Shown: positions 80-25,369 of the stretch, piece after piece | Position numbering within the stretch: position 1 is the stretch's first letter | Layout of the letters: every line of letters begins with the position of its first letter | Assembly (NCBI GenBank): GCA_937942935.1 | Contig: CALDGT010000155.1 | Span: 1 to 25,369, forward strand | From: an uncultured Chloroflexota bacterium | GTDB taxonomy: Bacteria > Chloroflexota > Anaerolineae > Aggregatilineales > Phototrophicaceae | DNA: 25,369 bases | Direction: 5' to 3' | The notes under the pieces: generated by a model | Told to the model about the DNA's origin: nothing | The model's input: only the letters and a program-made list of their open reading frames with translations | Databases searched by the model: none | Program-made: the position numbers and the translations under genes

Positions 80-168
80 AGGGCATCCTTTTATTTAGGC
101 GATTATCCCCTGCCTCAAATCAGATGAGATAATTGGTACGTCTTATAGATGATACGGCAATAATTTTT

Positions 169-245
169 AACCTCATCCCCCCGCCCCTTCTCCAATCTGG
201 AGAAGGGGAGAAAACCTCATTTTGAGGGGACTTAGGGGTGAGGTT
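169..245. repeat. REP-like/small dispersed palindromic repeat cluster downstream of asnS
   Basis: Perfect 11-bp stem CCCCTTCTCCA(184-194)-ATC-TGGAGAAGGGG(198-208). Small hairpin CCTCA-TTT-TGAGG (215-227). Outer arms AACCTCATCCCC (169-180) and GGGGTGAGGTT (235-245). The reverse complement of 224-238 matches 11064-11078 at 14/15. Confidence 0.7.
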
Positions 246-293
246 ATTAACACCATTTATCCCGTCCTCATGGGTTAGGGATAGTGAATAAAA

Positions 294-1634: not shown

Positions 1635-1673
1635 GAAAATTTCTCCTAAAAAGGTTGTTTGTGTATGGCGGTT

Positions 1674-1682
1674 ATTATAGCA
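1674..1682 (-). promoter_or_regulatory. Extended -10 promoter element for asnS
   Basis: TGCTATAAT on the minus strand, 40 nt upstream of the GTG start. Confidence 0.6.
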
Positions 1683-1714
1683 CGGGGATATAGACAAGGG
1701 GCAGATAGGATTAA

Positions 1715-1744
1715 TTGCACAATATAGCAATATATTGTTATAAT
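1715..1744 (+). promoter_or_regulatory. Sigma70-type promoter for the TIR gene
   Basis: TTGCAC (1715-1720), 18-nt spacer, TATAAT (1739-1744) with a TG extension at 1736-1737. AGGGAG SD-like at 1758-1763. Confidence 0.65.
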
Positions 1745-1775
1745 CGTGTAATAAGTTAGGGAGATTTTTGCCATT

Positions 1776-9487: not shown

Positions 9488-11044
9488 ATGTTCACCCAAA
9501 AATTTGCCATCATCCTATTCATCATTCTATGGTTTATTCCTATCAGCTCGGTTGATGCACAATCATCAGATGCGCCGAATTATCAGATTCGGGTGTTATC
9601 GAATGCACAACTCTCGGCGGATGAAACCACATTCACAGTGAATGTAGCGATTCTTAATATCGGCAAAGATGCCACGGTCGCCGCAACTGTTCAATTATAT
9701 CCATTCACCACACCCGATACCGTTTTGGCACAAAGCCCATTAGGTGCATTACGATTTAGCGAGGTGCGCGAGGTATCGCTGACATTTGCTGTTAGGCAAT
9801 TGCCCGCAGGCGAACAAGTGCCATTAGGTGTGCGCGTATTATTGAGCGAGGAGTTACAAACCACCTTGCTCGATAACACAACATCCTTCAGCATCACCGT
9901 CCCATTATATGATGGTGAGCAAAGTATCACCCCAATTGTGACAACACCACAACCCACTATACCTAGTCCATCATCAGAAACACCATTACCAAATGGGGTC
10001 ATCAAAATTCCAATCATCAATGTGACTATCAATTTGAACGATGAGAATCAACGCTTACTACTCGCGGGGATTTTGGTGGGGATTGTCGTCCTCATCCTCA
10101 TCCTGCTGATGATTATCCGCATTTTATTTCGCAGAACACCCTTATTCGGGAGTTACAAACCACCCTATAGCACCGTGAGTCAGTATGACCGCAACAGCAC
10201 ATTAGGGCGTAGGCAATTGTGGCAACAACACGCCCAAAATAATAGCGTACAGTATCCGTGTCGCATGGGGACATATCATGCTCGCAAATTATTGTTGGGT
10301 ATCAATGGACGTTATTTAGAAGGGTGGAAAATCACATCCCTCCGCATGATGCAATATGATATGTATGGCAGAATTACCCGTAGCCAAGTTCTAGCAAATC
10401 AAAAATGGGTTGCCCGACTCAATAAAACCGCGCATAAAGGGGCAAAACTCAAGCCCAAACAAATTTCACGCCGTGTTGCGCCGATTGCTAAATGGATGGC
10501 GGGGCAATTCAAAAAACGCCTTACCCCAAAAACCGCTCTGCTTTCGATTGCATTGGATGTCCGCCTAGAAGGAAAACATGGTGAAGTACGCATCGTATTT
10601 GAATTGCACGAGTGCCATCAGGGGATGCCCGCATTATTAGACCAATGGGACCCAGAAATGGTGATTGTGGGGCGTACTTTGCACGAAAGTTATACCTATA
10701 CACTCACAGGTCAAAATAATACGGAGACGTATCGGCAATTCCGCAAGCGGTTGCATAGCGATATTCAACAAGCCCTCGCCGATTTATGCCAAGTGGTAAC
10801 AGTCTCGCGCCCAGAACAAGTCATATCGCCACCCAATTTCTTAAATCCGCCGACGCATCCAACCAGCACCACTACCCAACGCGGATTCACACATATTTCG
10901 CCCAAAACACCCACTCAACCCATTACAGAGCGGTTGATTATTGAAGTGCCAACCGAGCATAATGTTTTGCCTATTGCCCCACCCTTACCCGATTTTGAAG
11001 GATTTTCTGATGAAACCCAACAAAGCAACCCAATGGATGACTAA
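9488..11044 (+). CDS. Single-pass membrane protein: signal peptide, CARDB/Ig-like ectodomain, P/T linker, TM helix, basic cytoplasmic domain of unknown function
   Basis: Signal peptide ending VDA|Q. CARDB-like pattern (FTVNVAILNIGKDA...LGALRFSEVREVSLTF...DNTTSFSITV). TPQPTIPSPSSETP linker. TM LLLAGILVGIVVLILILLMII followed by RILFRR. Confidence 0.75.
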   Translation: MFTQKFAIILFIILWFIPISSVDAQSSDAPNYQIRVLSNAQLSADETTFTVNVAILNIGKDATVAATVQLYPFTTPDTVLAQSPLGALRFSEVREVSLTFAVRQLPAGEQVPLGVRVLLSEELQTTLLDNTTSFSITVPLYDGEQSITPIVTTPQPTIPSPSSETPLPNGVIKIPIINVTINLNDENQRLLLAGILVGIVVLILILLMIIRILFRRTPLFGSYKPPYSTVSQYDRNSTLGRRQLWQQHAQNNSVQYPCRMGTYHARKLLLGINGRYLEGWKITSLRMMQYDMYGRITRSQVLANQKWVARLNKTAHKGAKLKPKQISRRVAPIAKWMAGQFKKRLTPKTALLSIALDVRLEGKHGEVRIVFELHECHQGMPALLDQWDPEMVIVGRTLHESYTYTLTGQNNTETYRQFRKRLHSDIQQALADLCQVVTVSRPEQVISPPNFLNPPTHPTSTTTQRGFTHISPKTPTQPITERLIIEVPTEHNVLPIAPPLPDFEGFSDETQQSNPMDD

Positions 11045-11045
11045 T

Positions 11046-12983
11046 ATGAAACTATCAACATCCCCCCTAAATCCCCTCTCTGCTTGGAGAGAGGGTTTTC
11101 GCTTATGGATTTATCCATTCAGTTATAAACCCATTTTGATGTTCATCATTATCCTATTAGCTATCCCATATAGCCTATTTGCACAAGATGAAGCCCCTAT
11201 AGATACCGCACTAGAGACTTTACGAACCTTACAAACAACACACATCCCACAAAATGACCCCATTAACCTCGCCTATCGGTTTTATGAGGTAGAAGCGCCA
11301 CCAGCACCTGTTCAGACGATACCGTATCAACGCGGAGACCAAGATGAATTTTGGGTATCTGATAATAATAGTGGCACAACACGCCGTCTCAATGCCACAC
11401 TAGAAGCCGTTGGGCAATTCGCCTATTTTTGGATAGAAGATGGCGAACCAGTGAATGAAGATGATTTGCATGATTTGGCTGTGACATTTGATGCCGAAAT
11501 TTATACCCAAGTCCGCGATATTTGGGGGTCTGAACCCCTTTTGGGTGTAGATGGTGATGCACGGTTACATATTTTATTTGCGCGTGGATTAGGAGCAAGT
11601 ACCGCCGCTTATTTTGCGCGTCGGCATAATTATCCAGAGGCAGTTTTGGCTCATTCTAATGCTCGTGAGATGTTCTTCGTCAATTTATCGAATATACCAA
11701 CAGTGAATAGCTCGTTTTTACAAAGCACACTTGCCCATGAATTTCAGCACATGATTCGCGCCAATACCACCCCAAATGAAGATGCGTGGCTCAATGAAGG
11801 ATTTTCGACATTTACCGAAGGCTACTTAGGATATGAAGCGGCAGGGCGGTATCCCAATGAGTTCTTGCGTGAACCCGATACCCAACTTACTGTGTTCGGA
11901 GTCGCCCCAAATCGGTTGGCAGAATATGGCGCGGGTTATTTATTTGTCAATTATCTTTATGACCGCTTTGGGCTAGAAGCGGTACAAGCCCTATCAAATA
12001 ACCCACTGAATGGCATGTTTGGGGTGGATGAAGTCACACAAGCGTTTGGAAATGTATCGAGTGATGAATTTTTTGCCGATTGGGTGGTGGCGAATCTGGT
12101 GCAGGATGGTCGGTGGGAATTGGGCTATCAACAACCACGCGGACTGATGCCACCTCATATTCACCGAGCAAGCGGAAAATGGTTTAATACCACACAATCA
12201 TTATCACAATATGCCACCCACTATTATGAATTGGCAGATGCAGAAGATTATTCACAGATTGAAATTGTACTGAGCCTGCCCGATATTGCCCAACTCGTCC
12301 CCATAGAAGCCTATAGTGGCGAAAAATTTTGGTATAGTAACCGTGGTGATATTAGTCACACCCGTTTATATCGTGAATTTGACCTCACCGCCGTCACCAG
12401 CGCTACCCTTACCTATCAATTATGGGCAAATTTAGAAGAACAATGGGATTATGGGTATTTGCTCATCAGCACTGATAGCGGGGCAACATGGCAAACACTC
12501 CAAACAGAACACATGACAACCGATAACCGCTTAGGGAATTTGTATGGCGAGGCGGGATATAGCTTTTCTAGTCATAAATGGCTAAAAGAGCAAATTATAT
12601 TAGATGAATTTGTGGGGCAAAAGGTCATCATCAGCTTTGAACTCATCACCGATGACGCCATTAATTATGAGGGAATGGTTTTAGATGATATTGCCATCCC
12701 CGAAATTGATTATTATGCCGATTTTGAAACCGATAATGGCGGATGGATAAGCGAGGGATGGGTTTGGGTGACAAATCAAATTCCGCAACAAGCATGGGTG
12801 CAAGTGATTCAATATTACCCGACAGGTATCCAAATTGACCGTTGGTTGTTGCCAAATAACCCAACCATATCAATTGGTTTATTAGATGATGTGGAATCGG
12901 TGGTGATGGCAATTTCACCCATCGCTCCTGTTACCACCGTCCCGACCAATTATGAGTTAGCCGTTGAATTGCGAAACGATTAA
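11046..12983 (+). CDS. Secreted zinc metalloprotease, immune inhibitor A-like (M6/M30-type)
   Basis: HExxH motif (LAHEFQHMI) with a downstream WLNEG third ligand. C-terminal InhA-type beta-sandwich (FWYSNRGD...FDLTAVTSATLTY..W..LEEQWDYGY..ISTDSGATW). Hydrophobic signal MFIIILLAIPYSLFA|Q. Start placed at ATG 11046, 1 nt after the upstream stop; 11139 is an alternative, and the ORF-track start at 10941 overlaps the previous gene. Confidence 0.85.
   Translation: MKLSTSPLNPLSAWREGFRLWIYPFSYKPILMFIIILLAIPYSLFAQDEAPIDTALETLRTLQTTHIPQNDPINLAYRFYEVEAPPAPVQTIPYQRGDQDEFWVSDNNSGTTRRLNATLEAVGQFAYFWIEDGEPVNEDDLHDLAVTFDAEIYTQVRDIWGSEPLLGVDGDARLHILFARGLGASTAAYFARRHNYPEAVLAHSNAREMFFVNLSNIPTVNSSFLQSTLAHEFQHMIRANTTPNEDAWLNEGFSTFTEGYLGYEAAGRYPNEFLREPDTQLTVFGVAPNRLAEYGAGYLFVNYLYDRFGLEAVQALSNNPLNGMFGVDEVTQAFGNVSSDEFFADWVVANLVQDGRWELGYQQPRGLMPPHIHRASGKWFNTTQSLSQYATHYYELADAEDYSQIEIVLSLPDIAQLVPIEAYSGEKFWYSNRGDISHTRLYREFDLTAVTSATLTYQLWANLEEQWDYGYLLISTDSGATWQTLQTEHMTTDNRLGNLYGEAGYSFSSHKWLKEQIILDEFVGQKVIISFELITDDAINYEGMVLDDIAIPEIDYYADFETDNGGWISEGWVWVTNQIPQQAWVQVIQYYPTGIQIDRWLLPNNPTISIGLLDDVESVVMAISPIAPVTTVPTNYELAVELRND
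11062..11095. repeat. Second copy of the REP-like palindromic repeat
   Basis: CCCCCCTAAATCCCCTCTCT-GCTTGG-AGAGAGGG, with an 8-bp stem at 11074-11081 / 11088-11095. 14/15 identity to the reverse complement of 224-238. Confidence 0.65.
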
Positions 12984-13366
12984 ATTTCCCAGACCGGTAT
13001 GCCCGATAAAATTTTGTGTAACTGGTCTGGAAATTTACTCAAACTGAGTGGTTTGCCCAAAAAGCTATGAAATCCTGCCCTGCGGGCGGTATCTATTTCG
13101 CTATTGTGAACGGTGTATGCCACAATCGGGATATTAGCGAGGTTGGGTTTGGATTTGAGATAATCTAAAATTTCAAATCCATTGTGATTGGGCAATTCCA
13201 AATCTAAAAAGATGACATCCACTTTGTCGAGGGTGTTTAGGGTTTCATCTAAATTGATGACAAATTGAATCGCCGTAAATTCGACCCCCTGACGCGCCAA
13301 CATCATGGTTAAAACTTCGATGTTCGTTTTGCTATCGTCAATGATAAGTGCATGTGGTGTTGACAT
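12980..13366 (-). CDS. Stand-alone receiver-domain response regulator (REC3)
   Basis: ALIIDD, IFLDLEL (phospho-Asp), AYTV (Thr), LGKP (Lys). No output domain. AAGGA SD. Confidence 0.93.
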   Translation of the reverse strand: MSTPHALIIDDSKTNIEVLTMMLARQGVEFTAIQFVINLDETLNTLDKVDVIFLDLELPNHNGFEILDYLKSKPNLANIPIVAYTVHNSEIDTARRAGFHSFLGKPLSLSKFPDQLHKILSGIPVWEI

Positions 13367-13399
13367 ATCTATAATCCTTTGTATTCATGTTGATAAAAA

Positions 13400-13801
13400 T
13401 TAGTCCCAAACTTCTTGACCTTCTAGGACAGATAATAATTTATGATTGAAGGTCTGAATATTGAGTGGCTTGTTGATGAATCCCGCAAAACCACGAGCGC
13501 GGGCTTTGGGGATTTCGATTGCAGGGTCAGATGCCGACACTGCTACAATCGGAATATGATTAAAATAGGGGTATTGGCGGATAATATCAAACACATCATA
13601 CCCACTGATATTGGCAGGGAACATTAAGTCTAAGAGGATAATATCAGGATGAGCAAGTTTGATTTTAGAGACGATGAGTTCTGGAAATCCCCATTTATCA
13701 AATTCAATTTTTGCCCCAGCCGATCCGACAATCATTTGGACAACATCTCGATTATTGGCATCATCTTCGATATAAAAAATCACTTTGCCTTCTAACATCA
13801 C
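13400..13801 (-). CDS. Stand-alone receiver-domain response regulator (REC2)
   Basis: FYIEDD, ILLDLMF, AVSA, INKP. No output domain. The start may be ATG 13798. Confidence 0.93.
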   Translation of the reverse strand: MMLEGKVIFYIEDDANNRDVVQMIVGSAGAKIEFDKWGFPELIVSKIKLAHPDIILLDLMFPANISGYDVFDIIRQYPYFNHIPIVAVSASDPAIEIPKARARGFAGFINKPLNIQTFNHKLLSVLEGQEVWD

Positions 13802-13830
13802 TATCCCTTTCCTAAAAGGCTCAAATAAAT

Positions 13831-13854
13831 AGGCATGATGGGTTCATCATGCCT
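13831..13854 (-). terminator. Intra-operon hairpin, weak intrinsic terminator-like
   Basis: Perfect 10-bp stem AGGCATGATG-(4 nt)-CATCATGCCT, followed on the minus strand by ATTTATTT. Confidence 0.55.
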
Positions 13855-13866
13855 TACTAAGGCAAT

Positions 13867-14271
13867 TTAGCTAATATGCCAAACTGTCTCGCCAGTGATA
13901 ACCCGTTGTATGAGGTCGGGAAAAGTCTGAATACTCAATGGTTTAGCAATCGCGCCATCAAAACCAGCCTCTCGTAATTGCTCTACTTCTTCATTCATCA
14001 CGCTTGCAGTGAGGGCGATAATCTTTGCACGAGCAAATTGGTCATTTTGGCGGAGCATTTTTAACATTTCAAAACCATCGTGTGGTGCGACATGAATATC
14101 TAACAAGATGATATTGGGGCGGTTTTCTAACCGACTCACTCGCCCTATAAAATCTTTGCTATCTTCAAAAATAGTCAGGTTATGAGACCCAACACCATTT
14201 TCAATGATAATCCGCATAATTTCACGACTCATGGGGTCGTCTTCAACGTATAGATAATAATTTTCTGACAC
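13867..14271 (-). CDS. Stand-alone receiver-domain response regulator (REC1)
   Basis: LYVEDD, ILLDIHV, ALTAS, IAKP. GTG start with an AGGAG SD. Confidence 0.93.
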   Translation of the reverse strand: MSENYYLYVEDDPMSREIMRIIIENGVGSHNLTIFEDSKDFIGRVSRLENRPNIILLDIHVAPHDGFEMLKMLRQNDQFARAKIIALTASVMNEEVEQLREAGFDGAIAKPLSIQTFPDLIQRVITGETVWHIS

Positions 14272-14339
14272 CTTTTGATTCTCCTAAAATCTGTGCTGAT
14301 GAGATGAATTTTGCATGATATTGCTAAAATACCGACAGC

Positions 14340-17189
14340 CTAACGATTAGTTGATATTGCAAAAGATTGTTGCATTTCTAAGACGAGTACCTCAGACCGA
14401 ATGGGCAAGGTCAAATAGAAACTCGCACCCTGCCCCGCATCACTTTCTAGCCATAATTTGCCACCATGCGCCTCGACTAATTTCTTGGTGATGGGCAACC
14501 CTAAGCCTGTCCCGCCCGCATGTCGAATACCGTGTTCAGTTTGGCGGAATGGCTCAAAAATAATTTCTTGGTCATCGGGAGAAATGCCCGGTCCCGTATC
14601 TATCACCGCAAATAACAACTCTTCTTGGCGTTTTTTTACACTTAAGGTCACACTCCCTTTTTCTGTGAATTTGCAAGCATTAGAGAGCAAATTGAGCAAA
14701 ATTTGGCGAATCCGCCGTTTATCGCCAACAATAAGAGGCAAATCTGCGTCTACATCTTGTATGAGGGTGACAGGCTTGTCTTGTAACAATGTTTTGCCTG
14801 TGGCGATAATCGTATTGAGTTCATTAGTCAGGTCTATATTTTCTTCGATGAATAATTTCATCATGCCTGCCTCGATTTTGGTCATATCCAAGACATCGTT
14901 GATGAGTGAAAGTAAATGTTTTGCGCTATCCAAAGATTTGCCGAGTGCATCTTTTTGCTTATCATTCACCACACCCAACATCCCCAACGACACGAATTCG
15001 GTAAAATTGAGGATAGCATTTAGTGGGGTACGGAGTTCATGACTCATGCTCGCCAAAAATTGGCTTTTCATTTGGTCAACTGCCCGTAATTGGTCGGCAA
15101 TTTTGACTTGTTCATCATATAAACGTGAGCGTTCTAAGGCGGCGGCGACCAAATCACTCAAACCACGAATAAGGCGTTTATCGAATGGTGTAAAGTGATA
15201 CAGGGTTGGGCTTGAAAAATTCAACCGCCCAATGACCCGTTCCCCCAAAACACAATCGGCGATTAAAATAGATTGAATCCCAAATGATTTATAGAGTTCG
15301 GTATCGGCTTTGTTTTCAACGAAAGCGCTATTGGTATCTTCAATCAGGAGCATATGCTTTTCATAAGTTTCGGTGCGTAATAATGGGACGAGTGTATCGG
15401 TAGCATCTGATGTTTTTTCGCCCGGAATTAAGATGGCGACCACTGTCGCTTGTTTGGCAGTCTTAAAATCAAAATGGTCTGGGACTAACAGCGTGGTCAT
15501 AAAATCGAATGGACCAAACACATTGGCAAACGCATCTAAAATTTGGGTATATGTGACAGCACCGTTAATTTCTTGGCTTAACCGATAAAACATTTCGGTC
15601 TCTTTTTGGGCTTCCAAAACTTGTAAGGTCGCTCGGCGTGCGGTGATATTTTCTGCCAGCCGTGGAGAGAGCAACTCTATCATGGTGCGAAGGGATTCTG
15701 GAAAAATATGATAATCACGCCAATTGATGACCATGAAGGCTTCATGTCGTTCTTGGGTACGTAATGGGATGATAATCATCGCCGAAAAACCGACTTTATT
15801 GACCACATCCATTTCAATTTCGCCCAACAAATTGGTTTTATGCACATTCTCAATATACAGAGGAAAATCGGTATTCAAAATTTTATTGATGAGTGGAAAT
15901 TCTTCGGGCGTGTAATTGAGCAAGCGGTTAAATGTGCTAAGCGGGATATTTTCGCCTTTATCATTTTGAAGCGCAACTGTCCTCAACTGTGTTACTTCGC
16001 CATCCTCATAATCCACATACATCAAAGCAGTACGGGTGGGCATGTGTTGAACCAAGATGGCGCTAAATGCGACCAACAAATCATCTTCGCTTTGGGCGCT
16101 ATTCATTGCATCGCTAATATCTGCCAATAATTCTGCCTGAAAACGCGCATCTTCAATAGCACGGAGCGCCATAATTTTGTCTGTTACATCTCTGATGATG
16201 ATAAGTGTGCCAGACCGTTGATTCGCTTCATCTAAAATTTCGCTGGTGGTTAGTTCATAATAACTTTGTTTATCCCCATTCAAAATTTGTAATTCTTTTT
16301 GGATGCTATGTGTGGTGATATGGGGAGCTAACCATGATAAAACATCACTCAAAAATTTGCCGAGCGCGGCAATTTCACTAAAAAACATGGCTTGTGCGCG
16401 TGGATTAATATCTAAAATGCGCTGGTCATTATCTATGACAATGACTGCATCATTCATCGCCTGCAATACCCGTTCACGGGCAACTGGCACAAGACTAAAA
16501 AACCGATACCGAAAAAGCCCAATCGCCACAAAAATATTGCCAATACCAAATGTTATTGGTTGAAAATCGCGTTGACCATTGAGGGTTATATCAAAAATGA
16601 ACGAAAAACTGGTAAATAAGGGGATAATCAGACCGATAAGGATAAACCATAACTGTGTGCGGAGTAGGTCTTTCACTTTGCGATTATAATTGAGCAATAA
16701 AGTGACGCCCGCAAAACTGAGGGCATAGGAATACATAGCGAGTAACCCCAATGCCATCCCCAAATCATAATAGAGTGCATTAAATGGTGGGTACTCAAGC
16801 AGGCGATAGTCAATCGCTACCAAACCATGTAAATCGTTGGTAAATGCCAATATCGTGCCGACAATCGGAAAGATAGATAATCCAACAGCTAAAGCGACTA
16901 ATTGCTTATCGGTGATGGTCGTGGTATATGCTAAGGCAAATATCACTATCGAAACTGGCACTAAAAACGAACCAAGATATTGAAAATTATCCCAAAAAAT
17001 TTTGGCTTCTAGGGTCGGAGCAGACAGCTCAAAAATATAGCCCAACGTCCATTGAGCTTGACAAAAGGCATATATAGCAAAGGTGAATGTCCCTCGAATC
17101 TGCCGATTTTGAAAGGTATATACCCCAATCACGACAGAGATGATGAATGACAAAGCATAAAGTAAGATAGGTAAGCCAAATTCTAACAT
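14340..17189 (-). CDS. Sensor histidine kinase: HisKA_7TM-like N-terminus, PAS, two GAF-like domains, HisKA, HATPase_c
   Basis: Seven N-terminal TM helices (WTLGYIFEL...KIFWDNFQY). PAS (MNDAVIVIDNDQRILDINPRA...IIRDVT). H-box FLASMSHELRTPLN, N-box QILLNLLSNACKFT, G1 DTGPGI, F-box IFEPF, G2 GGTGLGL. No receiver domain. Confidence 0.95.
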   Translation of the reverse strand: MLEFGLPILLYALSFIISVVIGVYTFQNRQIRGTFTFAIYAFCQAQWTLGYIFELSAPTLEAKIFWDNFQYLGSFLVPVSIVIFALAYTTTITDKQLVALAVGLSIFPIVGTILAFTNDLHGLVAIDYRLLEYPPFNALYYDLGMALGLLAMYSYALSFAGVTLLLNYNRKVKDLLRTQLWFILIGLIIPLFTSFSFIFDITLNGQRDFQPITFGIGNIFVAIGLFRYRFFSLVPVARERVLQAMNDAVIVIDNDQRILDINPRAQAMFFSEIAALGKFLSDVLSWLAPHITTHSIQKELQILNGDKQSYYELTTSEILDEANQRSGTLIIIRDVTDKIMALRAIEDARFQAELLADISDAMNSAQSEDDLLVAFSAILVQHMPTRTALMYVDYEDGEVTQLRTVALQNDKGENIPLSTFNRLLNYTPEEFPLINKILNTDFPLYIENVHKTNLLGEIEMDVVNKVGFSAMIIIPLRTQERHEAFMVINWRDYHIFPESLRTMIELLSPRLAENITARRATLQVLEAQKETEMFYRLSQEINGAVTYTQILDAFANVFGPFDFMTTLLVPDHFDFKTAKQATVVAILIPGEKTSDATDTLVPLLRTETYEKHMLLIEDTNSAFVENKADTELYKSFGIQSILIADCVLGERVIGRLNFSSPTLYHFTPFDKRLIRGLSDLVAAALERSRLYDEQVKIADQLRAVDQMKSQFLASMSHELRTPLNAILNFTEFVSLGMLGVVNDKQKDALGKSLDSAKHLLSLINDVLDMTKIEAGMMKLFIEENIDLTNELNTIIATGKTLLQDKPVTLIQDVDADLPLIVGDKRRIRQILLNLLSNACKFTEKGSVTLSVKKRQEELLFAVIDTGPGISPDDQEIIFEPFRQTEHGIRHAGGTGLGLPITKKLVEAHGGKLWLESDAGQGASFYLTLPIRSEVLVLEMQQSFAISTNR

Positions 17190-17281
17190 GGTAATCCCTA
17201 TGGTGTGTTGATTTTACATATTGTATGGTGAATGGTGATATGAATGTAACTGCCTGAGTAGAGAGTTTTTTGATGCGATAT

Positions 17282-17301
17282 ACCTGTCTAATTGGACAGG
17301 T
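17282..17301. promoter_or_regulatory. 20-bp near-perfect palindrome, putative LuxR/NarL-family operator
   Basis: ACCTGTCTAATTGGACAGGT has one mismatched pair and lies 92 nt upstream of the kinase start. There is no U-tract after it on the minus strand. Confidence 0.5.
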
Positions 17302-17325
17302 TAAAACAATTATCTCTATGGCTTG

Positions 17326-17967
17326 TCAAACGAGATTATTTTTTGCCGCCAAGACAATTGCTTCTGAACGTGTGGTGACACCCATTTTTTCGAGGATATT
17401 ATTGATATGAAATTTGACTGTAGATTGACTGATAATTAACTTGTCGGCAATTTCGGGGTTATTCTCACCTTTTGCCATCAGGCGCAACACTTCTAACTCG
17501 CGCGTGGTCAAATCAAAATTGCGTACAACAAGATTTTCTTGGGTTGACTTGAGCAAAACAGATGTAATTTCTGCGGAAAAGACCGATGCACCTGTCATAG
17601 CAGTGCGAATGGCGCTAATCAAATCGCCAGAGAGTGACCCCTTGACCACATATCCTATCGCCCCGCTATCGAGCATTGCCCGCACACTATCATCATCCTG
17701 AAAACTCGATAAAACCAACACCTTAACATCCTTAAAATGTTCATGGATTTTGCGCGTGGCTTCGATGCCATCAATATGAGGCATCACAACATCCATCAAA
17801 ATCAAATCGGGGAGCAATTCTTCACATAGGCGCAATGCCTCTAACCCATTATTCGCTTGCCCTATCAATTCTATATCGGGGGCAATCTTGAGGATGGTCG
17901 TCACAGCTTGATGAACCCAAATATGGTCATCAACCAGTAAAATGCGAATTTTGGATTGTTTTGTCAT
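17326..17967 (-). CDS. NarL/LuxR-family DNA-binding response regulator
   Basis: REC domain (ILLVDDH, ILMDVVMP, VLSS, YVVKG) plus a LuxR-type HTH (LTTRELEVLRLMAKGENNPEIADKLIISQSTVKFHINNILEKMGV). Confidence 0.95.
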   Translation of the reverse strand: MTKQSKIRILLVDDHIWVHQAVTTILKIAPDIELIGQANNGLEALRLCEELLPDLILMDVVMPHIDGIEATRKIHEHFKDVKVLVLSSFQDDDSVRAMLDSGAIGYVVKGSLSGDLISAIRTAMTGASVFSAEITSVLLKSTQENLVVRNFDLTTRELEVLRLMAKGENNPEIADKLIISQSTVKFHINNILEKMGVTTRSEAIVLAAKNNLV

Positions 17968-19033: not shown

Positions 19034-19037
19034 ATGC

Positions 19038-19064
19038 GGATGTGGCGGATTTTCCGCCATGTCC
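19038..19064. terminator. Hairpin between convergent genes (likely bidirectional terminator)
   Basis: GGATGTGGCGGA-TTT-TCCGCCATGTCC forms a 12-bp stem with two G:U pairs between the stops at 19033 and 19065. Confidence 0.65.
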
Positions 19065-20384
19065 TTATCGCCACACCGCAAATTGATACACACTATAGCT
19101 GGCAGGAAACAGTGACCAACCTGCCCGTCCGCGTGGTGGATGTGCATTGAGGGCGCGAATTCTGCCATAGCGGTCTATACTTTGCCATGTGAGCATGGTT
19201 TCATCTTCTAGCCACACATACGAAAAGACATCGAGTGCCAATACTTGGGGATAATCAGTTTGAGAGAGAATATCGGCTAAATTTACCATCACAACATCGC
19301 GTCCATAGCGTAGGCGTTCTGTCCGATTCACCTGATAGGTCATCATCGGACTAGTCCCCACCCAACGCGGATTTCGACCATCAAAGATAACCTCATGCCC
19401 CTCTGTGCCATCCCGACTCGCTACATAAATCGGCGCGAATCGGTCTGCCTGATTCACATCCGTTTGGATGAGCAACCAGTCTTCATCACCCGACCAGCGC
19501 AAATCTACCGCCGTATTGATGGGATAACGGTCTGTGCCGATGCGATACGCCTGATTTTTGGCGAAATCCCATGTATAAACCGATGAAAAACCGCCCTGCT
19601 GGGCAATCGTTGCAATCCATTCCCCACTCGGCGACCAATACCCCACCCCTGCCTGAATATCACTCAAAATGGGCGTCGTGGTACGGGCAGATACATCATA
19701 AATCAATAATTGATTTTGGGCGGTCAACGCCAATTTATCCCCAGTTGGCGACCAACGCATGGCACTATATTCCAGAGCGATGCTAGGGCGCGAAAATTGG
19801 CGTGTTTCGATGTTGATAATGACCACCGCGCCATCATCAATGAGGCTCACAAATTGTCCATTTGGCGACCATGTATATTGAACTAATCCGAGTATGGTCG
19901 GCTCATATAATCGGGTCACACGATTATTTTGTATATCCCACAAATGAAGCCCATTCAATTCGGTCGAGGTGGTGATTGGGCTACAGTGAAAAGTAACATA
20001 ACGGCTATCTGGCGACCAGCGAATCATATCACGCGGGGGAGCGCATAAATCGTAACTGATAGGAAAGAGGGTGAGGGTATACATGGTTAAATCGAGGGCA
20101 AAAAATGCGATTTGAGCGCCATTGTCATCTGTGACGAGCGCAGACTGACCATCTGGGGAAAAAATGAGTTGCCAATCGGTCTCGAATGGCGCAGATTGCA
20201 CCACATATAAGCGCCTGTTTATATCGGCAACGCCAAATGAGCGATTTTCATCGCGTAGGTGAGTCAAATATCCAACCACGCGGGTGGTTGGGATAGTTGT
20301 GCCAATCAGCACCGCCACAAGACAAATAACCGCGCTCACCGCGCTAATAAAGATACCTAACCGTAAAATGATTTTCGTTATCAT
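19065..20384 (-). CDS. Membrane-anchored PD40/TolB-like beta-propeller protein (last copy of the array)
   Basis: N-terminal TM helix then G.TIPT. Eight W/F-SPD-type blade motifs (FSPDGQ, WSPDSR, WSPNGQ, WSPTGD, WSPSGE, WSGDED, WVGTSP, WLEDET). Confidence 0.85.
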   Translation of the reverse strand: MITKIILRLGIFISAVSAVICLVAVLIGTTIPTTRVVGYLTHLRDENRSFGVADINRRLYVVQSAPFETDWQLIFSPDGQSALVTDDNGAQIAFFALDLTMYTLTLFPISYDLCAPPRDMIRWSPDSRYVTFHCSPITTSTELNGLHLWDIQNNRVTRLYEPTILGLVQYTWSPNGQFVSLIDDGAVVIINIETRQFSRPSIALEYSAMRWSPTGDKLALTAQNQLLIYDVSARTTTPILSDIQAGVGYWSPSGEWIATIAQQGGFSSVYTWDFAKNQAYRIGTDRYPINTAVDLRWSGDEDWLLIQTDVNQADRFAPIYVASRDGTEGHEVIFDGRNPRWVGTSPMMTYQVNRTERLRYGRDVVMVNLADILSQTDYPQVLALDVFSYVWLEDETMLTWQSIDRYGRIRALNAHPPRGRAGWSLFPASYSVYQFAVWR

Positions 20385-21685
20385 CGCACAAACTCAAATG
20401 CGCTCACTGCTTGGAGACCGCGTGTCACCGAATATAAGGATTTTTGGGATGAATAAAAATTAAAATGCCCAAATGGATGATTATTGAGGATGAATCCCCA
20501 ACCGCCTTCATCTGGCAACCATCGGATATTATGAATCAGTTTACCAGAAGTGATAATGTTTTGGCGAAATTGAGTGAGCGATTCGTCCCATGTGGCAATG
20601 CCAAAATAAGTTGTATCCATTATGTCATTTCTGATAGAGTATGCCACTTGTTGGCTATCAGATGACCATTGCGGATAAGCATACGCACCATCTACCAGCA
20701 ATATCAATTCAGAATGTGTGGGTGGTGAGACATAATAAGCAATATCGGGGGTGGATGTTGCCATATTCGACAATACCCCAAATGTCACCCAACGACTATT
20801 CGGCGACCATGTAGTAGCAGTAGCAGACACGGGTTTATCTTCAAATGGGGTTAATAACACCAATTCGGAGGTAGTAAGGTTGAATGTATATGCCAGTGAC
20901 CCCGAAACAAATGCGAGCCATTCTCCGTTGGGGGATACCTCTGGGGTTTGCGAAATCATCATGTCATCAATCAAAACCGCTTGCGACTGAGTGGCAAAAT
21001 GATACCGTTCAATCGAATTTAGGCTCATCATCAACACCGATTCGCCATCCCCTTCCCACGCGATAAATCGGTAGTATTGGTCTATTGGGCTGATTCGTTG
21101 CTCATTTTCGCCTGTGATGTCCACAATCCGCACCGAATTTTGGACATCCAGCGCCACACGGCGCATATCTGGCGACCAATTTTTGTCATCTACAAATTGT
21201 GTTTGAGAATAGAATAGGTGAACATTGCCTGTCTCAAAATCGAGTACATAAACCCCGCCCATCAGACCACCCTGAATATTGGTACGGCACGAGAAGGTGA
21301 TATGACGGTTATCTGTTACCCAATGTTCGCCAATCACATCACAATTTGGGAAGGTATCGGCTAAATGCACCATGCGCCCTGTAAAAATATCCCACACCGA
21401 AAATGTCGTTTCGGCATTGGTGACGGTTGCTAAGATGACACGATGACCATCGCCAGATAAATGAACAAAGCCAATTTGTGAAACAGGTAACTGAATGGGG
21501 ATATGCACCCGCCGATTCATATCGAATAGGGTGATATAATCTGCCCGCGCAAATTTGAGTGTGACCAACTGAGTCGGAATTATTTTGCCAAGCGCCAGCG
21601 CCGCCACACATAAAATCATCATCGGCATTATCATCAAGCAGATAAACCGTATTATCAGGCGGGTCTGTAAAAGAGGCGTATTCAT
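20381..21685 (-). CDS. Membrane-anchored PD40/TolB-like beta-propeller protein
   Basis: TM helix plus GKIIPTQ. Eight blades (LSGDGH, WVTDNR, WSPDMR, WEGDGE, VSPNGE, WSPNSR, WSSDSQ, WLPDEG). ATGA overlap with the next gene. Confidence 0.85.
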   Translation of the reverse strand: MNTPLLQTRLIIRFICLMIMPMMILCVAALALGKIIPTQLVTLKFARADYITLFDMNRRVHIPIQLPVSQIGFVHLSGDGHRVILATVTNAETTFSVWDIFTGRMVHLADTFPNCDVIGEHWVTDNRHITFSCRTNIQGGLMGGVYVLDFETGNVHLFYSQTQFVDDKNWSPDMRRVALDVQNSVRIVDITGENEQRISPIDQYYRFIAWEGDGESVLMMSLNSIERYHFATQSQAVLIDDMMISQTPEVSPNGEWLAFVSGSLAYTFNLTTSELVLLTPFEDKPVSATATTWSPNSRWVTFGVLSNMATSTPDIAYYVSPPTHSELILLVDGAYAYPQWSSDSQQVAYSIRNDIMDTTYFGIATWDESLTQFRQNIITSGKLIHNIRWLPDEGGWGFILNNHPFGHFNFYSSQKSLYSVTRGLQAVSAFEFVR

Positions 21686-23034
21686 CGCACAAATTCAAAT
21701 AGATTCACATGAATAAGCTCATCCAGCAAGAAAACAACATCTTCTGCCCCGCGCAAATATGCCAATAGGGTATCGTATGGTTTACGTGGTTGTGTTGTGA
21801 TAAACGCTAACGCCTCATTATTTGGCGACCAGCGCATATAATCTGATTCCCATTTTAATTCATGTGGGGTTGTTGGTGACTCTAATGAGACCATTCTCAA
21901 TGATTTGCTCTGTGAATAAAGGCTATAAGCAAATTGGGTGCTATCGGATGCCCATAATACGTCATAAAGCAAAATATCTGTCAAAAAGGTGGCATCTGTC
22001 CCATCTGGGCGTATCAGATGGGATTGTGGTTGGTTTTGTTTTTGGGCAGAAATCACAATCCATTCGCTGTTCGGAGACCACCAAAACCGAGTCCAAATCG
22101 AATTGGGTATATCATCCGATTCAAACGAAGCCAATTCTAAATGGGTTGTTTGATGTGTCGGCAGGTGAACGGTATAGGTTTCGCCAATTTTCGTATCTGA
22201 GAAAAATAAAATCACCCATTCCCCATTCGGCGAAAATATCATATAAGTTCCAAACGGGTCTGAATAAGCATTGACTTCTGTGCTGATAATGTCCCATGTT
22301 TGGGTGCCGATGTCATAACGGGCTAAGGTATTTTTGGAGAGTGTCAACAAAGACCGATTATCAGGATGCCATCTCATGAGAAAGGGGTCTGGTGGTGGGG
22401 TTAATTCAACCGTCTTGGCTTCATCTACATAGCGCATCACCAAACTGCCCTTTTCTAAATCTAAATTGGCAACCATACGCCCATCATTGGTTGTTTGGGT
22501 CAAGGTGGCAGGGCGCTTGCCCATGTTAAAATTATTATAGGTGCCGATAAATCGTATTTCATTGGTCTCAAAATTGAACATATAGGAGTCGGTTTGATTC
22601 GATTCAGAACATCCAAAATAAACCAACTGATTATTATTGAGTGTAGATTGATAACTCGCTTTTGCCGATTCTGCACAAATACCCTGCGGTAACTGAATCA
22701 CCCGCCCACCCAATATATCCCAAATCACCGAATGTTCCGAATCATCTTCTTGTTGATAATCTACTTTGGCAAACTGCCCATTCGAGGAGAAAGAGACCAT
22801 CAAAATTCTATCTGGTGAGACATTGATAGGATAATCGAAAAACATAAATTGATTGCTATAGGCTTCTAAAAGTGCCAACTGGCGCTTTTCTGAACTTGCG
22901 ATAACCACATCGGCGACAATCAATTGGGTGGGGATAAATGAAGCCAAATAGAGTGTGATAACCGCCATGATAGCCATCATAAAACTCATCAAAATCGTTA
23001 GTCTCATAATCAAGCGGATTTGAAAGTTCATCAT
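21682..23034 (-). CDS. Membrane-anchored PD40/TolB-like beta-propeller protein
   Basis: TM helix plus SFIPTQ. Blades FSSNGQ, two degenerate ones, WHPDNR, FSPNGE, WSPNSE, WASDST, WSPNNE. ATGA overlap. Confidence 0.85.
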   Translation of the reverse strand: MMNFQIRLIMRLTILMSFMMAIMAVITLYLASFIPTQLIVADVVIASSEKRQLALLEAYSNQFMFFDYPINVSPDRILMVSFSSNGQFAKVDYQQEDDSEHSVIWDILGGRVIQLPQGICAESAKASYQSTLNNNQLVYFGCSESNQTDSYMFNFETNEIRFIGTYNNFNMGKRPATLTQTTNDGRMVANLDLEKGSLVMRYVDEAKTVELTPPPDPFLMRWHPDNRSLLTLSKNTLARYDIGTQTWDIISTEVNAYSDPFGTYMIFSPNGEWVILFFSDTKIGETYTVHLPTHQTTHLELASFESDDIPNSIWTRFWWSPNSEWIVISAQKQNQPQSHLIRPDGTDATFLTDILLYDVLWASDSTQFAYSLYSQSKSLRMVSLESPTTPHELKWESDYMRWSPNNEALAFITTQPRKPYDTLLAYLRGAEDVVFLLDELIHVNLFEFVR

Positions 23035-24350
23035 CTCTCCAGAAAGTGATATTCCACAACTAAATTGGGTGGATAACTGATTCGGTGAATTTCTCCTGTA
23101 GCTATATCGAAATAGGCAAGATACGACTTCATAGTATCTTTATCTTGTGCCACAACAAAGCCTAATTTATCGGGGGTTAGCCATTGTTCCGCGAAAATAA
23201 GTTGTTCAATCACCTTAAATACGGTAAATTGCGCCTTAGCTTCATCCCACCGCCAAATATGCAAATAGCCCGTGGAATCTTCACTAAAGGTTATCCATTG
23301 GCTATCGGATGACCACTTAGCAAGCCGTTGATTAAATTGCATATTCGTGCGATGCAATAACACAAATTCAGATTTATCTGGTCTGGTGAGATAATAAACC
23401 CGTTCCCCACGGCTATACCCAATCATGATGAGCCACTGGCTATCTGGCGACCATACTAATGATTCCGGTTGTATCACATCATCCCCAAAAACCGATAAAT
23501 CATATACTGTGGCGGTTGGCAAATGTAGGATATGTGGTTTGGGATTGCTCAAGCCGAGTGATAATGAAAGCCATTGGTTATCAGGGGAGATTTTCATCGG
23601 CTGATAATTACTAATATTCAACTCTTCTGCCAAAATCTCTAATGTGTTTGTCGGAAGGGTGTATCGCTGAATATTTTTAACCCCTTGAATGAGCAATGAT
23701 TGGCTATCCGATTCCCACCCGATAAAACTCGCCCACATATTCGGCGGGGTGACAGGTTGCTCGTAGCTCCTATCTAAACTCGCTACACTCATACTGACTC
23801 TACCGGTAATCACAACATATTGACCATCTGGTGACATCATATCCATCATAATGAGAGGGGTAACGATAGATTGGCGTGTTTCAAAATCAAAAAAATAAGT
23901 GCCTTGTGTTAATCCGCCATAGCAAGTATAGGCAACGCGCCGACTATCGGGCAACCAAGTTGGTTGAAACATATCACAAGGTGGAATCTCGGCAAAATCG
24001 CCAGAAAAAATATCCCATACAAAGGAACTTCTGGGCGCATCTAAATTGGGACTCATTAGACCATAAATCAATAACACACGCCGACCATCTGGCGAGAGAC
24101 TTATAACAGGAGCATTGCCTTGTTCGGGCAATTGAACATAAGAGGTGGGGATATGAATCGGTAAATTGCGATTCATATCGAAAATGGTTATCCGTGATAT
24201 ATTTTGTGTTGGCAAATATGTGATAGCAGAGACCCATTGTGTTGGGTTGGCAGTGCCGATAGCGAGTGCAATTAAACAAAATAATCCAATAGGAAATAAG
24301 ATGAACATCATCAAGCGAATTACAATGCGTGTTTGTATGAGCATTTTCAC
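23031..24350 (-). CDS. Membrane-anchored PD40/TolB-like beta-propeller protein
   Basis: TM helix plus GTANPTQ. Eight blades (LSPDGR, WLPDSR, MSPDGQ, WESDSQ, ISPDNQ, WSPDSQ, WSSDSQ, WLTPDK). GTG start overlapping the upstream TGA. Confidence 0.85.
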   Translation of the reverse strand: MKMLIQTRIVIRLMMFILFPIGLFCLIALAIGTANPTQWVSAITYLPTQNISRITIFDMNRNLPIHIPTSYVQLPEQGNAPVISLSPDGRRVLLIYGLMSPNLDAPRSSFVWDIFSGDFAEIPPCDMFQPTWLPDSRRVAYTCYGGLTQGTYFFDFETRQSIVTPLIMMDMMSPDGQYVVITGRVSMSVASLDRSYEQPVTPPNMWASFIGWESDSQSLLIQGVKNIQRYTLPTNTLEILAEELNISNYQPMKISPDNQWLSLSLGLSNPKPHILHLPTATVYDLSVFGDDVIQPESLVWSPDSQWLIMIGYSRGERVYYLTRPDKSEFVLLHRTNMQFNQRLAKWSSDSQWITFSEDSTGYLHIWRWDEAKAQFTVFKVIEQLIFAEQWLTPDKLGFVVAQDKDTMKSYLAYFDIATGEIHRISYPPNLVVEYHFLER

Positions 24351-25369
24351 CTCAAAAAGGAAAATCCCACCACACTATCGCGTAGGTTGGTGAGTGTGCG
24401 AATGTCTCCGTTTTGTGTTCGGTAGCGTAATTGTTGTGGTTGCGGATAATGAATAAATACCATGCCAGACCCATCGGGCAACCATTGGGGCGATTGCGAA
24501 TAAGGGCTAATCACTTCGGCGGGCAAGAACGAGGTCATATCCCATAATAGCAATTCAGAATAATAGGTATTGCCCATTTCATCATAGACACTATAACTCA
24601 CTTGTGTGCCATCGGGCGACCAAATAGGGATAGATTCCACATTCTGCGCTAATTCCATCACCACAGAGGCATCTGGGCGGGCTAAATAATACATATTGCC
24701 CTCACGAGATTCGATGGTGGTACTCATCATCACCCATTGGCTATCGGGCGACCATCCCACCCACGTCACATTATTAATCTTGGTGTCGGTGGTTTCGAGC
24801 AAGTGTAATTCGCCTGTGCCTAGATGCAAGGCATACGCACGCGGACGGCGCTCATTTGTGACCAATGCCAACCATTCCCCATTCGGCGATAGAACTGGGG
24901 TGATACTGGTCTCAAAATCATCTAAAATCACAGTGAATTCACCTGTCGAAAAATCATAACGTTCTAGCGTCTTTACACCACGCAACAAGACCGATTCACC
25001 ATCGGGATACCATGCGACAAAGGTGAATCGTCTGCCTTGTGGGGTGATGGTCATAAAATCTTCGCCATGCACACCCACAATATGTACACTGCCTTCATCA
25101 TTAATCCCCACTCGCATAAAATTGGGCGACCATTGATATGCTAAAATGAGACTTGGTTTGTTATAGAGGGTATAAACCAGCCCTGTCTCAAAATCGAGTG
25201 TATACATCCCGCCAATTGTGCCATCGAGTGGATTACTACGACATTGAAACAACACATGCCGATTATCTGCCAACCAACGCCACCCACTAGCAGAGCAATT
25301 GATATAGTCTAGGGGCAAATCCACCACGCGCCCAGTCGTAATTTCCCAAACCGAAAATGCCGCCTGATT
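24347..25369 (-). CDS. PD40/TolB-like beta-propeller protein, 5'-truncated by the window edge
   Basis: The frame stays open beyond the ORF-track start (25327) to the window end (NQAAFSVWEITTGRVVDLP, matching TTFSVWDIFTGRMVHL of the 20381 paralog). Seven blades are visible. Confidence 0.85.
   Translation of the reverse strand, partial: NQAAFSVWEITTGRVVDLPLDYINCSASGWRWLADNRHVLFQCRSNPLDGTIGGMYTLDFETGLVYTLYNKPSLILAYQWSPNFMRVGINDEGSVHIVGVHGEDFMTITPQGRRFTFVAWYPDGESVLLRGVKTLERYDFSTGEFTVILDDFETSITPVLSPNGEWLALVTNERRPRAYALHLGTGELHLLETTDTKINNVTWVGWSPDSQWVMMSTTIESREGNMYYLARPDASVVMELAQNVESIPIWSPDGTQVSYSVYDEMGNTYYSELLLWDMTSFLPAEVISPYSQSPQWLPDGSGMVFIHYPQPQQLRYRTQNGDIRTLTNLRDSVVGFSFLR

What the first reader, a model, noticed from the sequence alone, without database searches (positions are those of the whole stretch)
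19065..25369. Array of at least five highly divergent, translationally coupled, membrane-anchored 8-blade beta-propellers
Seen: the four complete copies are 434-450 aa and share one plan: a basic N-terminus (R-L/I-x-x-R in three of them), one TM helix, G/S-x-x-P-T(Q), eight PD40-like blades, and a terminal hydrophobic strand ending in Arg. The truncated fifth copy fits the same blade pattern. There is no catalytic domain, and the primary sequences have diverged strongly. The most similar pair by eye (20381 and 24347, e.g. GGVYVLDFETG versus GGMYTLDFETG) is not adjacent. Established: arrays of diverged membrane-tethered paralogs occur as immunity-gene repertoires and as variable surface receptors. 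Inference: a diversified extracytoplasmic binding repertoire (toxin immunity, phage or partner recognition, or subunits of a hetero-oligomer) of an uncharacterised family. The operon head lies outside the window.
Basis: partly seen in the sequence, partly recalled or inferred. Interest (0 to 1): 0.7.

Follow-up and report, generated by a model that had tools for sequence, protein, structure and literature searches.

The report
Operon of membrane-anchored nine-bladed propeller paralogs
An uncultured wastewater filamentous bacterium (Anaerolineae) has an operon of five old, diverged copies of a membrane-tethered, non-enzymatic propeller protein that its whole genus inherits in fixed order, so it looks like specialised surface binding proteins rather than a fast-changing immunity or receptor repertoire.

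Summary
The five tandem minus-strand genes are real: 439, 434, 450 and 439 aa plus a truncated copy, with 4-bp start/stop overlaps at all four junctions. Each has a short basic N-terminus, one roughly 22-residue membrane anchor and a non-catalytic PD40-type propeller.

AlphaFold2 models of two copies (pLDDT 86 and 88) fit nine-bladed propellers best. That is eight signature blades plus a closing blade built from three N-terminal strands and the C-terminal strand.

The operon head, missing from the window, was found on contig C158 and in relatives. It is simply the first propeller gene, with no toxin, secretion, ECF-sigma or transporter gene upstream.

All eight arrays examined in this Anaerolineae genus sit at the same locus and hold 3 to 6 copies (one array is cut by its contig ends). 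The copies fall into six old paralog classes in collinear order. Two classes are present in every array and four are variable. Orthologs track the species tree and are under purifying selection (dN/dS 0.08-0.32).

Function remains unknown. My best reading is a set of side-by-side extracytoplasmic binding platforms with class-specific membrane-distal faces. It is an uncharacterised, genus-restricted branch of the PD40 superfamily, of modest interest.

The parts
24347..25369 (-). c1: class A (core) propeller gene. It is 5'-truncated by the contig end, with 340 codons present. The missing N-terminus is most likely the 51-aa fragment at the start of contig G000:C158.
   Evidence: (90% identical to gene 2 of L025).
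23031..24350 (-). c2: class B (accessory) propeller gene, 439 aa, GTG start that overlaps the c1 stop by 4 bp.
   Evidence: 80% identical to L025 gene 3; dN/dS 0.25.
21682..23034 (-). c3: class C (accessory) propeller gene, 450 aa, with an ATGA overlap onto c2.
   Evidence: 84% identical to L025 gene 4; dN/dS 0.19.
20381..21685 (-). c4: second class B (accessory) propeller gene, 434 aa. AF2 model: helix 4-35, then nine four-stranded blades, closed by C-terminal strand 427-432. Conserved Cys at 115 and 133.
   Evidence: (dN/dS 0.21).
19065..20384 (-). c5: class D (core) propeller gene, 439 aa. It is the last gene of the operon in all eight arrays and sits on a long stem branch. AF2 model pLDDT 87.7.
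   Evidence: 89% identical to L025 gene 6; dN/dS 0.12.
19034..19064 (.). 31-bp spacer between c5 and the convergent NAD-dependent epimerase gene. It holds a short 6-bp-stem hairpin (about 19044-19058), a weak candidate bidirectional terminator.
   Evidence: sequence read directly. The consensus scan did not list it.

Best explanation
The locus is a self-contained operon of five anciently diverged paralogs of one protein type.

Each protein is a type II (N-in/C-out) single-pass membrane protein. Its whole extracytoplasmic part is a non-catalytic, nine-bladed PD40-type beta-propeller. The propeller is closed by its C-terminal strand and probably stabilised by one disulfide.

The operon is specific to one genus of wastewater/bioreactor Anaerolineae (Chloroflexota) and is inherited vertically at a fixed locus (epimerase / array / membrane protein / CoaBC).
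- Class A near the head and class D at the tail are present in every array.
- Four accessory classes (Z, B, C, E) are kept or lost by lineage, always in the same order.
- Every copy is under purifying selection. The copies differ most in the loops of the membrane-distal face.

Inferred mechanism: the proteins sit side by side on the outer face of the cytoplasmic membrane as binding platforms. Each class recognises a different envelope or extracellular ligand or partner through its distal face. Co-transcription and start/stop overlaps ensure they are made together.

Inferred origin: the array arose by amplification of a single ancestral propeller gene. In sister genera that gene is coupled to a roughly 200-aa three-TM partner gene, which was not found in this genus.

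Shown: anatomy, fold model, orthology, selection, distribution and context. Inferred: topology, disulfide, binding function and class-specific ligands.
For: Anatomy:
- ORFs and overlaps.
- Only sub-threshold or marginal PD40, DPPIV_N and TolB-propeller matches, and no catalytic domain.

Fold:
- AF2 models have pLDDT 85.9 and 87.7.
- My blade map of the c4 model gives nine blades with 1+3 closure.

Topology:
- The N flank carries 1.9 K/R against 0.1 D/E. The C flank carries 1.2 against 1.1. The hydrophobic span averages 22.6 aa. Each ectodomain has two conserved Cys.

Operon head and context:
- Relatives show the first propeller gene preceded by a divergent gene of about 330 aa, with nine predicted TM helices in the G000 copy, and then CoaBC.
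- That membrane gene also precedes CoaBC in six other Anaerolineae loci that lack the array, so it is not array-specific.

Distribution:
- All 5 same-genus genomes carry arrays. Other genera have single copies or only generic PD40 hits.
- Of 80 Anaerolineae CoaBC neighbourhoods, only the same-genus one carries the family.
- There are about 22 full-length clusters in 1.84 billion representatives.

Evolution:
- A rooted tree of 40 members resolves classes D (100/100), A (95/99), B (99/99), C (100/99), E (100/100) and Z (93/97), with within-class branching repeated across classes.
- Orthology to L025 is collinear.
- dN/dS is 0.08-0.32 in three species pairs, against 0.02-0.14 for neighbouring genes.
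- Between paralog classes, distal-face loops are 15% identical with 14% gaps, against 36% for the membrane-side loops. Between close orthologs the two faces are equal at 84%.

Ancestral module:
- All five single-copy outgroup loci have an overlapping homologous gene of about 200 aa.
- That gene was not found in five genus genomes, three of them at least 98% complete.
Against: - No ligand, partner or phenotype is known for any member. The binding function is inferred from fold and family alone.
- The fold and blade number rest on AF2 models, not on a solved structure.
- No expression data could be obtained.
- Start/stop overlaps and fixed gene order fit a stoichiometric complex as well as they fit independent receptors.
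- The N-terminal anchor carries conserved residues (Arg13, a Cys, Gly, Pro-Thr). These could mediate contacts within the membrane rather than mere anchoring.
- The top/bottom face assignment assumes the usual propeller strand topology. It was not checked on coordinates.
- Absence of the 200-aa partner gene is 'not found with these queries'.
Confidence: 0.5

Rival explanations
1. The paralogs are subunits of one membrane-anchored hetero-oligomeric extracytoplasmic complex. Classes A and D form an obligatory core and the accessory classes are exchangeable. Translational coupling sets the stoichiometry.
For: - All four junctions in the window are 4-bp overlaps.
- A and D are present in 8 of 8 arrays, and gene order is invariant.
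- The anchor segment carries conserved residues.
- In sister genera the single-copy gene is always coupled to a small membrane protein. This suggests the ancestral propeller worked in a complex.
Against: - Subunit number varies from 3 to 6 between species, and accessory classes come and go.
- The anchor is the least conserved part between orthologs, at 63% identity.
- Several junctions in relatives are not overlapped and have gaps of 47-66 bp.
- The overlaps may simply be inherited from the duplicated unit.
Confidence: 0.2
2. The propellers are substrate-capturing, gating or anchoring modules. They work in trans with secreted or membrane peptidases, in the way the propellers of S9 peptidases and tricorn protease work in cis.
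For: - The nearest sequence families are DPPIV_N, PD40 and Tricorn propellers.
- An InhA-like metalloprotease gene lies about 6 kb away and is present at the same position in the close relative L025.
- An earlier scan note (e1-1437793) reports conserved metalloprotease plus anchored-propeller cassettes in Chloroflexota. This is a lead only and was not tested here.
Against: - No peptidase gene lies in or next to the operon in any of the eight arrays or the five single-copy loci. The one exception is an unrelated S9 peptidase two genes away in L115.
Confidence: 0.1
3. This is a diversified immunity or recognition repertoire (anti-toxin immunity, phage or partner recognition) evolving in an arms race.
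For: - It is a tandem array of strongly diverged membrane-tethered paralogs whose copy number differs between species.
- dN/dS is 2-7 times that of housekeeping neighbours.
Against: - Orthologs are one-to-one and collinear, and every pairwise dN/dS is at most 0.32.
- No face-specific substitution excess is seen between close orthologs.
- The locus is fixed and present in every genome of the genus searched.
- No toxin, secretion, ECF or mobile-element gene lies nearby.
- There are no PADLOC matches.
Confidence: 0.05

Closest known systems
Stand-alone PD40 / 'TolB family' / 'DPP IV N-terminal domain-containing' propeller proteins of bacteria (Pfam PF07676, PF00930), including uncharacterised clusters in Chloroflexota and Cyanobacteriota
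   Same: - PD40-type W-S-P-D/N blade signature.
- Non-catalytic stand-alone propeller of 370-460 aa.
- ESM Atlas neighbours score 0.92-0.95 by features and TM 0.55-0.65 by structure. Some clusters carry the eIF2A (nine-blade) Pfam family on all members.
   Different: - Only two whole-protein PD40 scores (c2, c1) and one DPPIV_N score (c4) clear Pfam's curated cut-offs. The other matches are below threshold.
- The family itself is confined to one small Anaerolineae clade.
- It differs in its type II anchor with a P-T motif and in its arrays of 3-6 old paralog classes.
TolB of the Tol-Pal system
   Same: PD40 propeller on the extracytoplasmic side, acting as a protein-binding platform. It is the best NCBIfam match, TIGR02800 at E 1e-9 to 1e-2.
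   Different: - Scores are 14-37 bits against a cut-off of 343.
- No TolB N-terminal domain was listed.
- Nine blades rather than six.
- A membrane anchor instead of a cleaved signal peptide.
- No tol-pal genes nearby.
- I take the host to be a monoderm-type Chloroflexota. This is my own knowledge and was not tested here.
DPP4 / DPP6 / DPP10 (S9B family type II membrane proteins)
   Different: No alpha/beta-hydrolase domain at all, nine blades rather than eight, bacterial origin, and 10-17% identity.
Nine-bladed propellers of eukaryotic eIF2A and eIF3b
   Different: About 10% identity. These are cytosolic translation factors. PF08662 scores below its cut-off (17 bits against 20.5). The resemblance is in geometry only.
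Single-copy propeller plus ~200-aa three-TM partner module of sister Anaerolineae genera (uncharacterised)
   Same: Same propeller family, with full-length alignment and 20-33% identity. These serve as the outgroup in the tree.
   Different: One propeller gene only, always overlapped by a homologous small membrane-protein gene. That gene was not found in the array-bearing genus.

Membership tests
PD40 / DPPIV_N beta-propeller superfamily | Repeated PD40-type blades detectable by profile | tested here: met
   - PF07676 whole-protein scores pass the 20.9-bit cut-off in c2 (31.7 bits) and c1 (25.6 bits).
- PF00930 scores 23.9 bits in c4 against a cut-off of 22.
- c5 and c3 are below threshold.
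- A profile of the family retrieves more than 98,000 PD40-repeat proteins at E<=1e-10.
TolB (Tol-Pal) | Equivalog score to TIGR02800 / NF002183 | tested here: not met
   14-37 bits against cut-offs of 343 and 405.
TolB (Tol-Pal) | Six-bladed propeller preceded by a TolB N-terminal alpha/beta domain | tested here: not met
   The models show a TM helix followed directly by a nine-bladed propeller. Pfam listed no TolB_N match.
TolB (Tol-Pal) | Encoded with tolQRA / pal / cpoB | tested here: not met
   The neighbours are an epimerase, a two-component system, a roughly 330-aa polytopic membrane protein and CoaBC.
S9B dipeptidyl peptidases (DPP4-like) | C-terminal alpha/beta-hydrolase domain with a Ser-Asp-His triad | tested here: not met
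   The proteins end with the closing propeller strand, and there is no Peptidase_S9 match.
eIF2A / eIF3b nine-bladed propellers | Family-level sequence match (PF08662) | tested here: not met
   17.0 bits (c5) and 13.2 bits (c1) against a cut-off of 20.5. The similarity is in fold only.
Polymorphic-toxin immunity gene arrays | Array lies downstream of, or next to, a toxin or secretion gene | tested here: not met
   The operon head was identified in seven relatives' arrays (G001, G002, G004, G005, L025, L112 and the same-genus MAG L031) and on G000:C158. It is preceded by a divergent membrane-protein gene and CoaBC.
Polymorphic-toxin immunity gene arrays | Rapid turnover or diversifying selection of copies between close relatives | tested here: not met
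   One-to-one collinear orthologs with dN/dS 0.08-0.32. Presence/absence differences appear only between species.
Anti-phage defence systems (PADLOC) | Match to a known defence protein model | tested here: not met
   0 families for all five proteins at E<=0.01.
LpqB-type lipoprotein propellers | PF10647 (Gmad1) match and a lipobox | tested here: inconclusive
   - Pfam listed no PF10647 match at E<=1.
- The conserved Cys lies inside the hydrophobic span, mostly without a lipobox context (read by eye).
- Some ESM Atlas neighbour clusters carry PF10647 on 16-23% of members.

The most novel reading that the evidence does not exclude
The paralogs assemble into one modular, membrane-anchored extracytoplasmic propeller complex. 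Classes A and D form an invariant core and the other classes are lineage-specific exchangeable subunits. In this genus the complex replaced an ancestral two-protein unit of a propeller plus a small three-TM partner. That would be a new kind of envelope machine in monoderm-type Chloroflexota.
Probability: 0.15. Interest if true: 0.6.

Novelty: new member of a known kind. Interest (0 to 1): 0.3.

Why it matters
Anchored PD40 propellers without a catalytic domain are very common in bacterial genomes and almost entirely unstudied outside TolB. This locus gives a clean natural series. There is a single-copy form with a small membrane partner in sister genera, and 3-6 ordered paralog classes (two universal, four optional) in one genus of filamentous Anaerolineae that live in wastewater reactors. 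The series could be used to ask what such propellers bind and whether paralogs subdivide that role. It also adds probable bacterial, membrane-anchored examples of the rare nine-bladed propeller geometry. As it stands the finding is descriptive. It has no known function and no link to a larger open question.

Tried and rejected
- Complex prediction on class A plus class D ectodomains (alignments A2, A3): no verdict, score 0.00. The tool says this is evidence neither way.
- The search for related loci with c5 in genome contigs: no confirmed relative.
- Exact-match search for the window's last 49 bases in metagenome contigs, to bridge the C155-C158 gap: no match.
- Exact look-up of c2 in the assembly collection: not on record.
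- RNA evidence: no RNA holder was listed for the whole array or for c5 alone.
- Literature searches ('nine-bladed beta-propeller bacterial'; 'PD40 Chloroflexi propeller'): nothing relevant.
- Earlier scan notes by sequence: none.
- Homology between the ~200-aa partner and the 328-aa divergent membrane protein: none.
- The divergent 328-aa membrane protein as an array partner: rejected, because it accompanies CoaBC in other genera that lack the array.
- Lipoprotein reading of the conserved anchor Cys: rejected by eye, since there is mostly no lipobox context.
- Consensus promoter and terminator scans: counts no higher than in shuffled sequence.
Full report
**Observation.** The window is a complete 25,369-bp contig (C155) of an 88%-complete, 1,304-contig metagenome-assembled genome.

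Between 19065 and 25369 the minus strand carries five consecutive ORFs. Four are complete, at 439, 434, 450 and 439 aa. The fifth has 340 codons and runs off the contig. I number them c1 (24347-25369, most upstream) to c5 (19065-20384).

Every junction is a 4-bp start/stop overlap: ATGA three times and GTGA once. Pfam and NCBIfam give only PD40, DPPIV_N, Tricorn and TolB-propeller matches, mostly below the curated cut-offs, and no catalytic domain. Paralog identity is 17-38%. The best pair, c4 and c1, is not adjacent.

**Fold.** I modelled two copies with AlphaFold2, using alignments of 26 and 24 family members.
- c4: pLDDT 85.9, pTM 0.77.
- c5: pLDDT 87.7, pTM 0.83.

Mapping the strands of c4 gives nine four-stranded blades. 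The ninth is the closure blade: its inner strand is the C-terminal strand (427-432), and its other three strands are residues 40-65.

**Topology.** Across 39 family members:
- the hydrophobic span averages 22.6 residues;
- the short N-flank carries 1.9 K/R and 0.1 D/E;
- the C-flank carries 1.2 K/R and 1.1 D/E;
- each ectodomain has exactly two Cys, both conserved, on neighbouring strands of blade 3.

This favours a type II signal anchor with the propeller outside. That is an inference, not a demonstration.

**The operon head and copy number.** Same-genus genomes and metagenome contigs hold the array in the same synteny. The order is three CheY-like receivers, a 7TM histidine kinase, a LuxR-type regulator, a convergent epimerase, the array, a divergent polytopic membrane protein of about 330 aa, CoaBC, and further on DnaN.

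The first propeller gene is the head of the operon, only about 60 bp from the divergent gene. No toxin, secretion, ECF-sigma or transporter gene lies upstream. The divergent membrane protein also precedes CoaBC in six other Anaerolineae loci that lack the array, so it is not a specific partner.

In G000 itself, contig C158 starts with the first 51 codons of the head gene, followed by that membrane protein and CoaBC. After a 14-residue leader, the fragment resembles class A N-termini at 51-58% identity. By my count from the sequences, it resembles the alternative class Z at about 33%. It is therefore probably the missing start of c1, which would make the G000 array exactly five genes. A close relative (L025) has six.

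**Taxon and habitat.** CoaBC of C158 is 94% identical to that of an 'Anaerolineae bacterium' MAG (isolate Prado090). Its other best matches are Anaerolineae, Aggregatilineales and Phototrophicaceae MAGs. Runs that hold the array are bioreactor, wastewater and activated-sludge metagenomes.

**Distribution.**
- All five other genomes of the genus have arrays. Other genera of the family have single copies or only generic PD40 matches.
- Of 80 Anaerolineae CoaBC neighbourhoods, only the same-genus one contains the family.
- A profile search of 1.84 billion representatives returns a flood of generic PD40-repeat proteins. Only about 22 are full-length, single-stretch proteins of 410-455 aa, and nearly all are this genus's paralogs or the single-copy outgroups.

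**Evolution.** A maximum-likelihood tree of 40 members, rooted on seven single-copy outgroups, resolves six paralog classes.
- D is the last gene in 8 of 8 arrays (support 100/100, long stem).
- A is in 8 of 8 arrays (95/99).
- B is in 5 arrays, with one or two copies each (99/99).
- C is in 4 arrays (100/99).
- E is in 2 arrays (100/100).

The order along the operon is always Z, A, (B or E), C, B', D. G000 reads A-B-C-B'-D. Within classes the branching repeats the same species groupings, as vertical inheritance predicts.

G000 c1-c5 are collinear orthologs of L025 genes 2-6.

| Pair | aa identity | dN/dS |
|---|---|---|
| c1 / gene 2 | 90% | 0.08 |
| c2 / gene 3 | 80% | 0.25 |
| c3 / gene 4 | 84% | 0.19 |
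| c4 / gene 5 | 79% | 0.21 |
| c5 / gene 6 | 89% | 0.12 |

Neighbouring genes give dN/dS of 0.02-0.11. Two other species pairs give 0.13-0.32 for the propellers, 0.045 for CoaBC and 0.14 for the divergent membrane protein.

All copies are therefore under purifying selection. They are more relaxed than housekeeping genes, and the accessory classes are generally more relaxed than the core classes (class A in the G005 pair is an exception).

Between paralog classes, the loops of the presumed membrane-distal face are the most diverged (15% identity, 14% gaps), against 36% for the membrane-side loops that carry the S-P-D/N-G turns. Between close orthologs the two faces are equally conserved at 84%, and the anchor is the most variable part at 63%. 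This is the pattern of old specialisation, not of a current arms race.

**Ancestral state.** All five single-copy outgroup loci have a homologous gene of about 200 aa that overlaps the end of the propeller gene. Its product has three predicted TM helices and two invariant Cys, and it has no Pfam family. Neither a single sequence nor a profile of it finds anything in five genomes of the array genus, three of them at least 98% complete. It is also rare in the order, with weak hits in 6 of 121 genomes. The array genus therefore seems to have lost the partner and multiplied the propeller.

**Interpretation.** The structural, evolutionary and contextual parts are well supported. The function is not.

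I commit to the following model (confidence about 0.5 for the whole statement, and lower for the functional part alone). The proteins are non-enzymatic binding platforms on the outer face of the membrane. They are made together, and each class has its own distal binding surface.

Rivals:
- A hetero-oligomeric complex of the paralogs (0.2).
- Modules that work in trans with peptidases (0.1).
This last reading fails its own stated refutation test, has no toxin or defence context, and is kept alive only by the between-species presence or absence of the accessory classes.

The single complex prediction allowed returned no verdict and is not used as evidence.

**Comparison with known families.** This is a new, genus-restricted family within the PD40/DPPIV_N propeller superfamily.
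- It is not TolB: scores are far below cut-off, there is no N-terminal TolB domain, it has nine blades rather than six, and there is no tol-pal context.
- It is not an S9B peptidase, because it has no hydrolase domain. It does share the type II anchor-plus-propeller layout of DPP4, DPP6 and DPP10.
- It resembles eIF2A and eIF3b only in nine-blade geometry.

**Verdict.** Novelty: a new member of a known kind. Interest is modest (0.3). The locus is well defined and tidy, and it is a good natural series for studying anchored propellers, but it has no demonstrated or strongly implied new mechanism.

Noticed in passing
L023:7867-9715, L024:5945-7860, L114:4001-5913, L115:2855-4715, L116:180-2076: In sister genera the single-copy propeller gene is always overlapped (1-8 bp in the three metagenome loci, more in the two genome loci by the ORF calls) by a homologous gene of about 196-202 aa. 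Its product has three predicted TM helices and two invariant Cys, and no Pfam family. The gene was not found in the array-bearing genus. This is an uncharacterised two-gene module.
   Followed up: partly
L023:6348-7745 (-) and L114:2409-3821 (-): Orthologous TIR + WD40 proteins (56% identical) are divergently adjacent to the single-copy propeller/partner module in two different outgroup lineages. The window's own TIR-WD40 gene (1776-4352) is not their ortholog (22% identity).
   Followed up: partly
G000:C158 (L030) 2-154 (-), 214-1200 (+), 1216-2463 (+): This small contig of the same assembly carries the 5' end of the propeller operon. Its 14-aa leader, beginning (M/V)DGYNARIEPV, is shared with the first array gene of L025 (there a class Z copy) and, more loosely, with the head gene of a same-genus MAG. 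The contig also carries the divergent 9-TM protein and CoaBC.
   Followed up: yes
L025:3413-4759 (+): The closest relative (distal copy 89% identical) has a sixth, very fast-evolving class Z copy at the head of the array (terminal branch 2.1 substitutions per site). Copy number therefore differs even between close relatives.
   Followed up: partly
window 12980-17967 (-): A HisKA_7TM/PAS/GAF histidine kinase, three stand-alone receiver proteins and a LuxR-type response regulator sit in synteny with the array in the close relative L025 and, by ORF layout, in same-genus genomes. No functional link to the array could be tested.
   Followed up: no
window 9488-12983 (+): A 518-aa ORF without Pfam matches overlaps by about 100 bp the start of a 680-aa InhA-like (MAM domain, Peptidase_MA_2) metalloprotease ORF. 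The protease start is probably further downstream (it is 652 aa in the relative).
   Followed up: no
Pfam confirms the TIR and WD40 parts.
   Followed up: partly
window 19034-19064: A short hairpin (6-bp stem, 3-nt loop) lies in the 31-bp spacer between the convergent c5 and epimerase genes. It is a weak candidate bidirectional terminator, and the consensus scan did not pick it up.
   Followed up: no
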